Below are positions 19,502 through 61,645 of a stretch of DNA of 64,000 nucleotides, piece after piece. The notes under the pieces were generated by a model. It worked only from the letters and a program-made list of their open reading frames with translations, was not told the origin of the DNA and did not search any database. Source of the DNA: a phage; sequence record NC_135731.1, one strand, 5' to 3'. Numbering within the stretch: position 1 is the first letter of the stretch; each line of letters begins with the position of its first letter. A program made the translations under genes and the position numbers.

Positions 19502-19524
19502 AGGGGCTTCGGCCCCTGTCTTAG
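19502..19524 (+). terminator. hairpin, possible terminator
   Basis: AGGGGC-TTCG-GCCCCT after nrdA; poor T tract. Confidence 0.35.
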
Positions 19525-19534
19525 AGGTAGAATA

Positions 19535-20623
19535 ATGGCTGTATTTAATGCTGAGAACACCGCTCATAAAACTGGTGACTATCCGCTGTTTCTAGGACAG
19601 CAAATGGGTATGTACGACTCTATTAACAAAAAATATCCACAACTGTTCGAACTGTACAAAAAACAAAAAGAACAAGACTGGGCAGAGGATGAAGTGGATT
19701 TGTCGCAATCTATTTCAGATTTTGTAACATGCTCCAAGTCAACTTATGACGTGATGGTGCAAACCTTGATGTGGCAATGGGAGGCTGATAGCGTTGCGGC
19801 AAGATCGATCATCTGCCTCTTTTCACCATTCATCACTAATAGTGAGCTTTTCACTCTATTGATGAAACAGTCGGAGATTGAAGTTCTTCACGCACTAACT
19901 TACTCAGAGATTGTTAGACAATGCCTCCCCAATGCCCGTGAGATTATAGAAGAGATTCAGGAAAACCAAAACGTTCTGAGCAGATCCGGCGTTATTGTCA
20001 AATACATGCAAGAGCTTGAGGTTATTGGTGCAAAATATCGATTGGATCCTTCTAGTGTTGAAGAAGATACTGTGCGGAAATGCATTCTTAGAGCGCTTTT
20101 TGCACTTTTAGCTCTAGAAAGTATTGAGTTTATTGCAAGTTTTGCATGCACTTTCGCAGTAGCTGAGCAAGGTATTTTTGTTCAAGTGGCACAACTTGTT
20201 CAAAAAATTATGCTTGATGAAATGCTGCATTCGAAAGGTGATTTTGCTATCATCGATATCCTGCTTGATGATCCTGCATGGGAGCAAAGCTTCCTTGAGA
20301 TTAAGGGTGAGTTAAAAGAAATTCTTGACGAAGTGCGGACCAAGGAGTACGGTTGGAGTGACTATATTTTCAGCGAAGGAAGAGCGATTATAGGTCTTAA
20401 TTCACCGTTGCTTAAAGAATGGGTTGACTATAACTGCTCACCGATTTATGATTATTACGACATCGACAAAGACTTTGTGCCGCCAACAAAAGACCCGCTA
20501 CCGTTTATGCAGGTGTGGATGAAACCCTCACTGCAACAGACGGCTAACCAGGAAATGTCTAACACAGACTACCGCGTCAACACAACCGTTAACGACGCTG
20601 AAGAAGAAATTTGGGAGTTTTAA
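19535..20623 (+). CDS. nrdB: Ribonucleotide reductase class Ia small subunit
   Basis: 362 aa, di-iron ligand regions (EVLHALTYSEI, ESIEFIASFA) characteristic of NrdB. Confidence 0.85.
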   Translation: MAVFNAENTAHKTGDYPLFLGQQMGMYDSINKKYPQLFELYKKQKEQDWAEDEVDLSQSISDFVTCSKSTYDVMVQTLMWQWEADSVAARSIICLFSPFITNSELFTLLMKQSEIEVLHALTYSEIVRQCLPNAREIIEEIQENQNVLSRSGVIVKYMQELEVIGAKYRLDPSSVEEDTVRKCILRALFALLALESIEFIASFACTFAVAEQGIFVQVAQLVQKIMLDEMLHSKGDFAIIDILLDDPAWEQSFLEIKGELKEILDEVRTKEYGWSDYIFSEGRAIIGLNSPLLKEWVDYNCSPIYDYYDIDKDFVPPTKDPLPFMQVWMKPSLQQTANQEMSNTDYRVNTTVNDAEEEIWEF

Positions 20624-55473: not shown

Positions 55474-55932
55474 TCAACACTCTTTGTATTCCACCACGAT
55501 AATATCTATATCAAAAGTGGCAAGGTTAATAACGTCCTCTACGTGCTCCCACTTCAAACCGCCTATGCCGCACCCGATTTTGGGGACGTAGAATGGTAAA
55601 GTCGATCCACCGAATACCTTATTGACCAGCTCAAAGCCTTTCAGGATTGAGAAATATTCAGCATTAGGCCCTGGGTAGAACTGAGTATACAGATTGATTC
55701 CGTAGACAATACCTCCCGGAGATAAGTGCTCCCATCGGGAGAACGCACCTAGTTTACTTAGGCAACCGTGCCTCGTCTCTTTGTCGGCTGCCAATGCTTG
55801 AGGGAACTCACTGGCAATCTGTTTTGCTATACCCTTACCCATTGTGTGGAAGCAGTTACAACCGTGGATCAGGTGACCAGCACCGCTCTTAAAAAGGGAG
55901 ATTAAATCTCCCTCTACAGTATCAATAATCAC
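55474..55932 (-). CDS. Macro-domain-like protein (putative ADP-ribose binding/processing)
   Basis: HGCNCFHTMGKGIAKQIA and GCGIGG glycine-rich motifs resembling phage macro-domain family. Confidence 0.45.
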   Translation of the reverse strand: MIIDTVEGDLISLFKSGAGHLIHGCNCFHTMGKGIAKQIASEFPQALAADKETRHGCLSKLGAFSRWEHLSPGGIVYGINLYTQFYPGPNAEYFSILKGFELVNKVFGGSTLPFYVPKIGCGIGGLKWEHVEDVINLATFDIDIIVVEYKEC

Positions 55933-57125: not shown

Positions 57126-57187
57126 TTTTCAGATCTCCTTATACAAAAATGCCCCACCCTTTCGGGCAGGGCTATGTTAACTAGATG

Positions 57188-58414
57188 TTAGAAGGGGATG
57201 TCATCATCAAAGGCGTACTGTGCTGGATTCTGATCCATCGGGTCGTCTTCCCCATCATTTACAGGAGGAGCGTCTACAGTGTTTTGCTGTGGAGCTGCTT
57301 CCTGTTTGGCAGCCTGAGGTTCTTGATGGTCAGTTGACCCAGCACCGTTCTTGATCCAATCGTACAACGGCTCAGCCAGATTAGTCAACACATCTTTTGC
57401 TTCTGCAGTAATTGCCGCTGCAAAATCATCAACTTTCGTTTTCTTGTCAATACGGCGACAAGCGTTCAACACCGCATTACCGACACTGGCACCTACTTCA
57501 TCTTCAGTTCGGTTGGTGGCTTGAGCATACTCTTTCTTAAGCTCAATGGTGACTACGTGCAGTGCTTTAGCCACACCTAGTGGGTCGTCTACCTTAAAAC
57601 CGCGATCCAGGATGATTTGCAACGCATTGATGCTATGCCCCGTCTCCACACCAATAGGGTCGTAAGAGGATTTACGCTTGCCACCAGAGCCTTGAGTGCC
57701 GTTCTCTGCCTTAGGTGGGTAGGCTTTGAAACCACTGATAATGTTTCCGGTGTCTTTGTCAACAATGGCTGCAACACGACCACCTACCACCAGGTCTTTA
57801 AGCTGCTCATCAGTGACAACCATAGCACCTTCGCCAATCTTGTGGTCATTAACAGTAACCACGTTGCCAACAATCTGAGTCACATCGCCATAGATGCGTA
57901 AAACGTCCTGATTGGCATTCTGCTGAGGTTTCTGCTTCTGGCCTTGTGATTGTGCACCTTGTTGCTGTTTTTGCTGCTGAGTCGCTGCTGGAGCCTCTCC
58001 TGCACCCAGCTTAACCATCTTAGCCAGTGAGCCTTTGTAATAGGTCTTACCGTTATGCTCGTTTGCCTTCAAAGGGATATTTACGATCCATCCTGGCGTT
58101 ACGGTTTCCCACTTGTCATCAATCTTAACAGAGACAGAGTCTTGATGACCAGGTTTAAGCAGCTTATCACCCATACTGATCCAGACTTCTTCACCGCCTT
58201 GGAGCAGGTTATCAGAGGAGTCCAGTTCAGAAATCAGCAAAGAGATGGTGTGGCTGGATTCAATTTTCTTACCTTGCCACACGGTGGTTTTAATACCTGT
58301 TGCAGGATCAGCTCCTTTAATAGGTTTGATGCTAACACGCTTGATCATACCGTGAGCCAGTAAGACAGTTTCACGCGGATTCATCGGGTTAGCAAATTGT
58401 TGAATAACGCTCAT
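57188..58414 (-). CDS. ssb: Single-stranded DNA-binding protein-like (C-terminal DDDIPF tip)
   Basis: C-terminus ends DDDIPF exactly like bacterial SSB; Gln-rich low-complexity linker; 408 aa. Confidence 0.55.
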   Translation of the reverse strand: MSVIQQFANPMNPRETVLLAHGMIKRVSIKPIKGADPATGIKTTVWQGKKIESSHTISLLISELDSSDNLLQGGEEVWISMGDKLLKPGHQDSVSVKIDDKWETVTPGWIVNIPLKANEHNGKTYYKGSLAKMVKLGAGEAPAATQQQKQQQGAQSQGQKQKPQQNANQDVLRIYGDVTQIVGNVVTVNDHKIGEGAMVVTDEQLKDLVVGGRVAAIVDKDTGNIISGFKAYPPKAENGTQGSGGKRKSSYDPIGVETGHSINALQIILDRGFKVDDPLGVAKALHVVTIELKKEYAQATNRTEDEVGASVGNAVLNACRRIDKKTKVDDFAAAITAEAKDVLTNLAEPLYDWIKNGAGSTDHQEPQAAKQEAAPQQNTVDAPPVNDGEDDPMDQNPAQYAFDDDIPF

Positions 58415-58779
58415 TATTTATCTCCTTGTTCTTCGTTAGTGTTTGCCGTGTGTGCAAACCCTGCTTGAATTAATTTGTCCTGAACTTGAGCCAATAGGCC
58501 CATTGCAAAACTTGTGGTCCCAGAGAGGGCCATTAGCATATCTCGTTGTTGAGCTACCCAACCTAAGGCATAGTCCAAACGACGATATTTTTCTTCTTCG
58601 CGCAGAGCCTGAAATAATTGTTCAGCCTCCGGTTGTTGTGTGAGCTCCTGAAGTCTTCCCATGAAAGAAGAAAGCACTAGCAAAAGAGACACTTGATCTT
58701 TACTTAACCCTAAGAAAAATTCTTGAGGTTGTTCTTGCTCGTTCATCGCAACCGACTCTTGATCGTTCATTTGTTCCAT
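58414..58779 (-). CDS. hypothetical acidic protein (121 aa)
   Basis: ORF; overlaps ssb start. Confidence 0.45.
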   Translation of the reverse strand: MEQMNDQESVAMNEQEQPQEFFLGLSKDQVSLLLVLSSFMGRLQELTQQPEAEQLFQALREEEKYRRLDYALGWVAQQRDMLMALSGTTSFAMGLLAQVQDKLIQAGFAHTANTNEEQGDK

Positions 58780-59810: not shown

Positions 59811-60139
59811 GCTTCCTCATCATCTAAGTAATCATCAAGAGAGGTGAAGATTTCACCGAAGTATTCTAAGATTTCTAGCTCACGTGTGGTGCAGCAAACA
59901 TAATCGCCTTGGTCGTCCTTAATAGTTGCCTCTTTACCCAGAATATCTACTTCAAGTTCATCGTTCAACAGGACGGCCCCTGTGTAAACTTTGTCAGCTG
60001 TGCAGTCCCGAAAAGCAGAGTCTTTCTCCAGATAGTCTGGCTTAACCTTGGCTTTAATTCGTTGATATTGTTTGGTCATTGCTGTGGTCCCCTTTCGTTT
60101 TGATAGGGCCATTATATTAGGCCCCATCACTGTTGTCAA
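59807..60139 (-). CDS. hypothetical acidic protein, paralog of 60143-60397
   Basis: Shares AFRDCT...DDQGDYVCCT pattern with neighbour (AFKDCT...DDEGDSVWCT). Confidence 0.5.
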   Translation of the reverse strand: MTTVMGPNIMALSKRKGTTAMTKQYQRIKAKVKPDYLEKDSAFRDCTADKVYTGAVLLNDELEVDILGKEATIKDDQGDYVCCTTRELEILEYFGEIFTSLDDYLDDEEA

Positions 60140-61274: not shown

Positions 61275-61645
61275 TGATCGGTCTCCTTCTTGTTAAGTCT
61301 GAATACTGCAATAATAGCATTCCCAAGGTGCAGTGTCAAATCATTTCCAAGATACCACAACATTCCACGGTCATCTTTAATGAAAGGGTAACAATCCGGT
61401 GCCTTCCAGACATTGTACACTTTCCCAACCTGAAAGAAATCAGGCCCTGTTGGGATTTTGGTGCCAGGCCACACTTGAGATACCTGAACACACTCCACCT
61501 GCATAATAACAGGAATAGTCATGGATGTAAATGTTTTTGTTGGTTCTACTACCATAAAAGTCTCCTCTTTGCTTAACAGCACCTCCCTGTGCTGATAGTT
61601 TACATTAGTGACAATCACCCCAGTTACTACCACACAAGTATTCAC
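61271..61645 (-). CDS. hypothetical protein (124 aa)
   Basis: ORF with GGAGG RBS. Confidence 0.45.
   Translation of the reverse strand: MNTCVVVTGVIVTNVNYQHREVLLSKEETFMVVEPTKTFTSMTIPVIMQVECVQVSQVWPGTKIPTGPDFFQVGKVYNVWKAPDCYPFIKDDRGMLWYLGNDLTLHLGNAIIAVFRLNKKETDQ

What the first reader, a model, noticed from the sequence alone, without database searches (positions are those of the whole stretch)
57188..58414. Unusually long SSB-like protein with a canonical DDDIPF tail
The 408-aa product ends in DDDIPF, the exact tip bacterial SSB uses to recruit partner proteins, preceded by a Gln-rich low-complexity linker. The N-terminal 130 aa do not obviously resemble a standard OB-fold SSB by eye. The phage may be mimicking the host SSB interaction hub.
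Basis: partly seen in the sequence, partly recalled or inferred. Interest (0 to 1): 0.45.

Follow-up and report, generated by a model that had tools for sequence, protein, structure and literature searches.

The report
Phage SSB-like protein with host-type tail
This rV5-like coliphage gene encodes a three-domain protein, most likely the phage's own single-stranded-DNA-binding protein, that ends in the same FDDDIPF peptide as the host's SSB; a 2026 preprint already describes the 99 %-identical Bas52_0087 as an SSB-like trigger of the DRT10 defence system, so the finding is real but not new.

Summary
A 408-aa ORF (57188..58414, minus strand) ends in FDDDIPF followed by a stop codon. The window is a Vequintavirus (rV5-like) phage.

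No sequence profile recognises the protein as an SSB (Pfam, NCBIfam, PDB sequences, hhalign). AlphaFold2 predicts these parts:
- A Gln-rich linker.
- A second small beta-barrel.
- A strongly conserved four-helix domain.
- An acidic disordered tail.

The gene lies in the replication module. Distant relatives keep the order primase/helicase, family-A polymerase, this gene. A curated relative's genome has no other SSB, and the PF-ending tail is kept in 86 of 114 family representatives. I therefore read it as the phage's replicative SSB, at about 0.7 confidence. ssDNA binding has not been tested.

The protein is 403/408 identical to Bas52_0087. A preprint from April 2026 reports that protein as an "SSB-like" trigger of DRT10 with an FDDDIPF tip and proposes competition with ExoI. 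Its escape mutations, D252V and Y351C, fall in the helical domain.

This analysis adds several points:
- The helical domain is the hallmark of the family.
- The phage primase/helicase also ends in an acidic ...TPF tail, as in T7.
- A homing-endonuclease allele caps the tail with 15 residues in about one third of relatives.

The parts
57188..58414 (-). Whole ORF, 408 aa plus stop. Ortholog of Bas52_0087 (403/408 identical) and member of PHROG 4477.
57998..58414 (-). Residues 1-139: N-terminal OB-fold domain, pI 9.1, the presumed ssDNA-binding module. Conserved H55, G82, G108, K123, Y125, Y126.
57908..57997 (-). Residues 140-169: disordered Gln-rich linker (13 Q in 30).
   Evidence: pLDDT below 50; composition
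57719..57907 (-). Residues 170-232: second small beta-barrel with b1-b2-b3-helix-b4-b5 order, the OB/S1-like topology. Absent from the short (260-300 aa) family members.
   Evidence: Secondary structure and pLDDT about 80. Foldseek hits of about 65-70 columns to IF1, proteasome Rpt OB and RPA14 with probability about 1 but E >= 0.09; assigning them to this domain is my inference. Absence in P0052-P0056. The preprint also reports two OB folds.
57344..57667 (-). Residues 250-357: four-helix domain, the most conserved part of the family (D252, G255, G259, H260, N263, and a G308xxxG312-N-A-V-L-N-A-C motif). It holds both published DRT10-escape sites, D252 and Y351. Presumed oligomerisation or cooperativity module.
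57212..57343 (-). Residues 358-401: acidic, Pro/Gln-rich intrinsically disordered linker.
   Evidence: pLDDT 30-46. Net charge -11 for residues 358-408.
57191..57211 (-). Residues 402-408, FDDDIPF: C-terminal tip identical to the last 7 residues of E. coli SSB.
   Evidence: The profile aligns only this tail to E. coli SSB 1eqq and 7f2n and to TIGR00621.
57141..57172 (-). Terminator-like hairpin (9 bp, 7 G-C) plus T-run directly after the stop codon. Relatives carry a 640-nt homing-endonuclease insertion just upstream of it, at the gene's last codons.
58414..58779 (-). Upstream 121-aa ORF of unknown function. Its stop overlaps this gene's ATG by one base (TGATG), so it is probably co-translated.

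Best explanation
[quoted passage not shown] The basic N-terminal OB fold, probably helped by the second small OB-like barrel, is inferred to bind ssDNA. The conserved four-helix domain is inferred to mediate self-association or cooperative coating. The long acidic disordered linker presents a free C-terminal FDDDIPF peptide that recruits partner proteins. Because the tip is identical to that of E. coli SSB, it can in principle engage host SSB-Ct clients such as ExoI/SbcB, chi, PriA and RecQ. It may also, or instead, dock on the phage's own T7-like replisome. Shown here: the ORF, the tail and its conservation, the predicted folds, the synteny, and the absence of any other SSB. Shown in the literature (genetics only): the ortholog is needed to trigger the DRT10 defence, and SbcB dosage modulates that defence. 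Inferred: ssDNA binding, oligomerisation, and every tail-partner interaction.
For: 1. Tail. It ends exactly in FDDDIPF then stop. 86 of 114 diverse family representatives end in PF. Some relatives carry EPPMDFDDDIPF, matching 12 residues of E. coli SSB.
3. Charge layout is that of an SSB: OB domain pI 9.1, tail net charge -11.
4. Context. The gene is co-directional with PIF1-like helicase, DnaB-type primase/helicase and family-A DNA polymerase, and lies about 3 kb downstream of them. All four distant members examined (30-37 % identity) lie downstream of a family-A or polymerase-like gene; three are within five small ORFs of it, and in L014 the polymerase is about 10 kb upstream.
5. No other SSB. 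None of the 227 features of the curated MaxBurger genome is annotated as one. phmmer with E. coli-type SSB cores finds nothing (all E > 1).
6. Independent support. Bas52_0087 is 403/408 identical. Phold and AF2 predicted it as SSB-like with an FDDDIPF tip, and it is genetically required for DRT10 triggering, with SbcB/ExoI as modulator.
7. A few GenBank annotators call homologs ssDNA-binding proteins.
Confidence: 0.7

Rival explanations
1. The tail's main partner is the phage's own replisome, not host proteins, following T7 logic. In T7 the SSB (gp2.5) and the primase-helicase (gp4) both carry acidic, Phe-terminated tails that dock on basic patches of the family-A DNA polymerase. Here the SSB-like protein and the primase/helicase would both use a ...PF tail to bind the phage polymerase, and the resemblance to host SSB would be incidental or secondary.
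For: The primase/helicase of this phage ends ...GFEDDETPF and that of KpS8 has ...DDDTPF. In the whole genome these two are the only ORFs with acidic PF tails. The replisome is T7-like: a DnaB_C/AAA_25 primase-helicase and a DNA_pol_A polymerase. In T7, the gp2.5 tail binds the polymerase front basic patch, and a DTDF peptide stands in for the gp4 tail (PMC12339929). The tail of phage HK620 SSB is needed for its phage partner Sak4 (PMC5928155).
Against: The identity with the host tip is exact, and in relatives it extends to 11-12 residues, which is more than polymerase docking would need. Primase/helicases next to distant family members lack such tails (...PEGSY...PNKDF) while the SSB-like tails stay DDDIPF. 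The DRT10/SbcB genetics point to a host ExoI connection. The two readings are not mutually exclusive.
Confidence: 0.35
2. The protein is mainly a decoy of the host SSB hub. Its job would be to sequester or redirect host SSB-Ct clients (ExoI, RecQ, PriA, RecO, UDG and others), with ssDNA binding secondary or absent.
For: The tip is identical to the host's. The preprint proposes competition with SbcB, and SbcB over-expression weakens DRT10 defence. The unusual non-SSB helical domain is the best-conserved part.
Against: A basic OB fold is retained throughout the family. Synteny with polymerase and primase is fixed. The phage would otherwise lack an SSB while encoding a complete replisome. Expressing Bas52_0087 alone did not harm the host, which argues against strong titration of essential SSB clients.
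Confidence: 0.15
3. It is a recombination mediator or annealing protein (RecO-like: OB fold plus helical bundle) rather than an SSB.
Against: RecO scores no better than dozens of SSB/RPA OB domains. No zinc finger is present. RecO binds the SSB-Ct tip rather than carrying one. The interdomain orientation in the model is arbitrary, so the multi-domain match means little (pTM 0.37).
Confidence: 0.05

Closest known systems
Bas52_0087 (QXV84166.1) of Escherichia phage RudolfGeigy/Bas52, the DRT10 (UG17) trigger (bioRxiv 10.64898/2026.04.29.721553)
   Same: 403/408 identical, same length, same FDDDIPF end, D252 and Y351 present. It is the same protein for practical purposes. The preprint predicts an SSB-like architecture with two OB folds, a disordered C-terminus and a C-tip like that of E. 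coli SSB.
   Different: Five substitutions (A38T, A284T, A369T, G388E, A401S). The preprint gives no ssDNA-binding or tail-binding biochemistry. In the sections read here it does not describe the four-helix domain as such, the family census, the primase/helicase tail or the capped allele.
E. coli-type homotetrameric SSB (Pfam PF00436, TIGR00621)
   Same: N-terminal OB fold, long disordered linker, and an identical C-terminal FDDDIPF tip. Relatives share up to EPPMDFDDDIPF.
   Different: No detectable sequence homology in the OB core. It is 408 aa against about 178 aa. It has an extra small beta-barrel and a conserved four-helix domain between the OB fold and the tail. The oligomeric state is unknown.
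Bacteriophage T7 gp2.5 SSB (with the gp4 and gp5 tail-docking system)
   Same: A phage-encoded OB-fold SSB with an acidic tail ending in Phe. It is encoded with a gp4-like primase-helicase, which here also ends in an acidic ...PF, and a family-A polymerase.
   Different: No sequence similarity, and only a weak Foldseek hit to the gp2.5-like DUF2815 structure 4klk (E 0.06). gp2.5 has a single domain of 232 aa and lacks the IPF tip. Tail-to-polymerase docking is untested here.
Phage HK620 SSB (partner of Sak4)
   Same: A phage SSB whose last six residues (NDYPPF) resemble the host tip and are needed to engage a partner on SSB-coated ssDNA (PMC5928155).
   Different: That paper describes HK620 SSB as a distant homolog of SSB. 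Its partner, Sak4, is a recombinase, and no Sak4 gene was noted in this phage's annotation.

Membership tests
Bacterial-type SSB (Pfam PF00436 / NCBIfam TIGR00621) | Significant sequence match of the DNA-binding core to the SSB profile | tested here: not met
   Pfam: no hit even at E <= 10, and none in 114 relatives. TIGR00621 matches only the tail, E 0.24. hhalign of the N-domain against E. coli-type cores gives probability 0.2 %.
Bacterial-type SSB (Pfam PF00436 / NCBIfam TIGR00621) | OB-fold DNA-binding domain | tested here: met
Bacterial-type SSB (Pfam PF00436 / NCBIfam TIGR00621) | Disordered acidic C-terminal linker ending in a free D-D-D-I-P-F tip | tested here: met
   pLDDT below 50 for residues 359-403 and 406-408. 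Net charge -11. FDDDIPF then stop, followed by a terminator.
Bacterial-type SSB (Pfam PF00436 / NCBIfam TIGR00621) | Preferential high-affinity ssDNA binding and homotetramer formation through the OB domains | not testable with these tools
   Needs biochemistry. No multimer prediction was available.
T7 gp2.5-type phage SSB system | OB-fold SSB with an acidic tail ending in an aromatic residue, encoded with a gp4-like primase-helicase and a family-A polymerase | tested here: met
   synteny in distant members
T7 gp2.5-type phage SSB system | Primase-helicase carries a matching acidic Phe-terminated tail | tested here: inconclusive
   Met in this phage (...EDDETPF) and in KpS8 (...DDDTPF plus extension). 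Not met in two distant members' neighbours.
T7 gp2.5-type phage SSB system | Sequence or structure homology to gp2.5 / DUF2815 | tested here: inconclusive
   Only a weak Foldseek hit to 4klk (E 0.06). No Pfam DUF2815 hit.
PHROG 4477 / Bas52_0087 family (DRT10 trigger) | Full-length sequence match, with the residues hit by the escape mutations present | tested here: met
   PHROG 4477 E 1.3e-172 over residues 1-408. 403/408 identity to Bas52_0087. D252 and Y351 present.
PHROG 4477 / Bas52_0087 family (DRT10 trigger) | Triggers DRT10-mediated defence during infection | not testable with these tools
   Shown genetically for Bas52_0087 only.
RecO-like recombination mediator | OB fold plus helical domain plus zinc finger; binds rather than carries SSB-Ct | tested here: not met

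The most novel reading that the evidence does not exclude
The family (at least 241 clusters at 50 % identity, absent from Pfam) would be a distinct class of phage SSB. In it a conserved four-helix module, not the OB fold, provides self-association. The host-identical C-tip would be a dual-use code: it docks on the phage's T7-like polymerase, as the primase/helicase's ...TPF tail may also do, and it captures host SSB clients such as ExoI, which is what DRT10 senses. In about one third of rV5-like phages, a 15-residue cap (APVGLQYGKSRIHAL) linked to a homing endonuclease buries the terminal Phe. It would act as a natural on/off switch of that hub, with possible consequences for evading defences that sense the tip.
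Probability: 0.2. Interest if true: 0.7.

Novelty: already known. Interest (0 to 1): 0.4.

Why it matters
Vequintaviruses are common therapeutic and biocontrol coliphages whose replication proteins are mostly labelled "hypothetical". Identifying their missing SSB improves annotation of at least 240 protein clusters that neither Pfam nor PHROGs names.

The protein is also the only known phage determinant for the DRT10 reverse-transcriptase defence. Three questions therefore bear directly on how that immune system senses infection:
- Does its host-identical tip bind ExoI, the phage polymerase, or both?
- Is the helical domain that holds the escape mutations an oligomerisation module?
- Do the naturally capped alleles behave differently?

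The basic claim, an SSB-like protein with an FDDDIPF tip, has already been published as a preprint.

Tried and rejected
- **Sequence profiles.** Pfam, NCBIfam, PDB sequence profiles and hhalign found no SSB core; only the tail matched. A Pfam scan of 114 relatives found no domain in place of the N-domain, only 8 stray weak hits.
- **Whole-model Foldseek.** The search against the PDB gave nothing with E <= 0.001, because the model has three domains in arbitrary orientation. A separate N-domain model was needed.
- **Extension as endonuclease overlap or scar.** I first thought the 15-aa extension after IPF was only an overlap with, or a scar of, the homing endonuclease. I rejected this as a general explanation. 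KpS8 primase/helicase, BUCT618 SSB, mEp235 SSB and a Vibrio phage OB protein all carry it with no endonuclease remnant nearby (tblastn). Their DNA differs by many synonymous changes while the peptide is kept.
- **Universal primase/helicase PF tail.** I tested whether this tail accompanies the family everywhere. It does not in two distant members.
- **DRT10 sensitivity of naked versus capped tails.** I tried to read this for BASEL phages from the preprint. The data are only in a figure, which is not held.
- **Literature.** The rV5 plus SSB search gave nothing specific. PMC6162179 (a gp2.5 review) is not held.

Full report
**1. The observation**

The window holds an ORF at 57188..58414 on the minus strand. 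It starts with ATG, encodes 408 codons, and ends ...NPAQYAFDDDIPF followed by TAA.

Immediately downstream lie a G+C-rich hairpin with a T-run (57172..57141) and then the RBS and ATG of the next gene. The Phe is therefore a true C-terminus.

I scanned 2573 stop-to-stop ORFs from the window plus a complete related genome. Only this ORF ends in DDDIPF, and only one other, the primase/helicase, has an acidic ...PF end. The tail is not a chance feature.

That is only partly right. The strongest Gln-rich segment is residues 140-169, between two folded domains. The linker before the tail is Pro/Gln/acidic.

**2. Where it comes from**

The gene is 100 % identical in DNA to Escherichia phage phiWec196. 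It is 95-99 % identical to about 100 rV5-like phages of the genus Vequintavirus, where it is almost always annotated "hypothetical protein".

It matches PHROG 4477 (unknown function) over its full length. It has no Pfam or NCBIfam family.

**3. The family**

A word-indexed search found 56 homologs down to 30 % identity. An exhaustive profile search of 1.84 billion cluster representatives found 241 clusters with E <= 1e-3.

Most members are 260-300 aa. They consist of the N-terminal domain, the helical domain and the tail. The 63-residue middle domain is an addition found in the Vequintavirinae-like branch.

None of 114 members scanned has a meaningful Pfam domain.

The tail is kept widely. 86 of 114 members end in PF, 20 of them exactly in DDDIPF, and others end in LPW or LDF. 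Some relatives end in EPPMDFDDDIPF, matching E. coli SSB over 12 residues.

**4. Structure**

AlphaFold2 with the 43-sequence alignment gives three confident domains separated by disordered segments:
- Residues 1-139, all beta.
- Residues 170-232, a small beta-barrel with b1-b2-b3-helix-b4-b5 order.
- Residues 250-357, four helices with pLDDT 85-94.
- Residues 359-408, a disordered tail.

- PriB and RPA32.

This is fold-level evidence, not homology. A profile-profile comparison with E. coli-type SSB cores is negative (probability 0.2 %).

The helical domain matches only generic helical proteins. It is nevertheless the most conserved part of the family. Conserved positions include D252, G255, G259, H260 and N263, plus a GxxxG-containing stretch, VGASVGNAVLNAC. 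I infer that this stretch reflects tight helix packing.

The charge layout resembles an SSB: the OB domain has pI 9.1 and the tail has net charge -11.

**5. Genomic context**

In the curated BASEL genome of phage MaxBurger the gene order on one strand is as follows:
- rIIA and rIIB.
- PIF1-like helicase.
- Methyltransferases.
- DnaB-type primase/helicase.
- Family-A DNA polymerase.
- Nine small ORFs.
- This gene.

Pfam confirms the replisome types.

No SSB is annotated among the 227 features of that genome. phmmer with E. coli-type SSB cores finds none.

I examined four distant members at 30-37 % identity. All lie downstream of a family-A or polymerase-like gene. Three are within five small ORFs of a primase/helicase plus polymerase pair. 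In L014 the polymerase is about 10 kb upstream.

A phage with a complete T7-like replisome and no other SSB, carrying an OB-fold protein with an SSB tail at a fixed place in the replication module, is best explained by that protein being the SSB.

**6. What the tail binds**

Two readings remain open, and they are not mutually exclusive.

*(a) Mimicry of the host hub.* The tip is identical to the peptide by which E. coli SSB recruits ExoI, chi, PriA, RecQ and others. This rests on established knowledge of SSB-Ct; see also PMC3632105 and PMC5872125, listed.

*(b) T7-like docking within the phage replisome.* This phage's primase/helicase ends in ...GFEDDETPF. In T7 the acidic Phe-terminated tails of gp2.5 and gp4 dock on the polymerase (PMC12339929). 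However, the primase/helicase tail is absent next to distant family members, whose SSB-like tails remain DDDIPF. That favours a partner common to all of them, such as host proteins or the polymerase.

**7. Prior knowledge**

A bioRxiv preprint of 30 April 2026 (10.64898/2026.04.29.721553) reports Bas52_0087 of phage RudolfGeigy. It reports the following:
- The gene is hit by two independent mutations, D252V and Y351C, that let the phage escape the DRT10 (UG17) reverse-transcriptase defence.
- The FDDDIPF motif resembles the E. coli SSB C-tip.
- The protein may compete with the host exonuclease SbcB/ExoI.
- The protein alone was neither toxic nor sufficient to trigger defence.
- No DNA-binding or peptide-binding assay is reported.

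The window protein is 403/408 identical to Bas52_0087 and has D252 and Y351. In my model both escape sites lie in the four-helix domain. D252, at the N-cap of helix 1, is conserved in 92 of 114 relatives, while Y351 is variable.

**8. What this analysis adds**

- A family-wide view: at least 241 clusters, a short form as the common architecture, and the helical domain as the hallmark.
- Formal negative sequence tests against SSB families.
- Evidence that no other SSB is present in the genome.
- Conserved synteny in distant members.
- The primase/helicase tail.
- A natural polymorphism at the tail, described next.

*The tail polymorphism.* About one third of rV5-like phages carry a 640-nt insertion exactly at the last codons (roughly 39 of about 119 records). 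It encodes a 207-aa Cys-rich homing endonuclease whose ATG lies inside a 15-codon extension of the SSB-like ORF...FCDDIPF-APVGLQYGKSRIHAL. Nucleotide differences cluster in the tail codons just upstream, as expected for co-conversion or target-site immunity.

The same 15-residue peptide follows ...DDD[IT]PF in several other proteins that have no endonuclease remnant nearby:
- The E. coli-type phage SSBs of BUCT618 and mEp235.
- A Vibrio phage OB protein.
- The KpS8 primase/helicase.

In these the DNA has many synonymous differences. The peptide therefore appears to be under selection in its own right.

From established knowledge of SSB-Ct complexes, partners grip the terminal Phe and its free carboxylate. 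The cap should then mask the tip. Its function is unexplained.

**9. Verdict**

This is a real and well-conserved feature. It is most likely the Vequintavirus replicative SSB (confidence about 0.7), with a non-canonical OB + OB + four-helix architecture and a host-identical C-tip. The partners of the tip are unresolved.

On novelty, the specific claim is already in the literature as a prediction backed by genetics. The additional observations are incremental, but they give concrete and testable handles.

Noticed in passing
window 57188-57211 (-); compare L002 3051-3694 (MaxBurger): About one third of rV5-like phages carry a 640-nt insertion exactly at the last codons of this gene. It encodes a 207-aa Cys-rich free-standing homing endonuclease, annotated 'endonuclease VII' or 'homing endonuclease', with no Pfam or NCBIfam hit. 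SNPs cluster in the tail codons just upstream (FDDDIPF becomes FCDDIPF). The window carries the endonuclease-less allele. An HNH_3 endonuclease also abuts the 3' end of a distant family member (L014 11161-11670).
   Followed up: partly
L002 3051-3099; L004 2516-2563; L005 1552-1599; L006 1543-1590; L007 1525-1572: A conserved 15-residue peptide, AP[IV]GLQY[GA]K..[IM][HY][AV][LI], follows ...DDD[IT]PF in several unrelated proteins: the SSB-like protein of endonuclease-bearing rV5-like phages, the E. coli-type SSBs of phages BUCT618 and mEp235, a Vibrio phage OB protein, and the KpS8 primase/helicase. Where no endonuclease is present, no remnant of one is found, and the DNA differs synonymously. 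The peptide therefore seems to be selected. It would bury the terminal Phe carboxylate. Its function is unknown.
   Followed up: partly
L001 3054-5132 (phiWec196 primase/helicase; just beyond the window end): The DnaB-type primase/helicase of this phage ends in an acidic ...GFEDDETPF tail, resembling the SSB-like tail and the T7 gp4/gp2.5 arrangement. Primase/helicases next to distant family members lack it.
   Followed up: partly
window 58414-58779 (-): A 121-aa ORF with no family hit. Its stop codon overlaps the ATG of the SSB-like gene by one base (TGATG), which suggests translational coupling. It could be a functional partner.
   Followed up: no
window 55474-55932 (-): A 152-aa ORF with a Macro-domain match (PF01661, E 8.7e-6), about 1.3 kb downstream of the SSB-like gene (three genes on) in the same operon-like run. 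It may be an ADP-ribose-binding or -removing protein.
   Followed up: no
window 60111-60139 (-): A perfect sigma-70 consensus promoter (TTGACA, 17 nt spacer, TATAAT; 12/12) on the coding strand of this early/middle gene run. An 11/12 site with an extended -10 TG lies at 61311-61339 (-).
   Followed up: no
L013 9837-10001: In a distant relative, a T7 gp5.9-like ORF (PF25708; gp5.9 is a RecBCD inhibitor in T7) lies directly upstream of the family member and overlaps its start by one base.
   Followed up: no
window 19502-20623 (+): The class I ribonucleotide reductase beta subunit ends ...DAEEEIWEF. This is the expected acidic, aromatic-terminated tail that binds the alpha subunit. It came up in the tail census and is unrelated to the SSB tip.
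   Followed up: no
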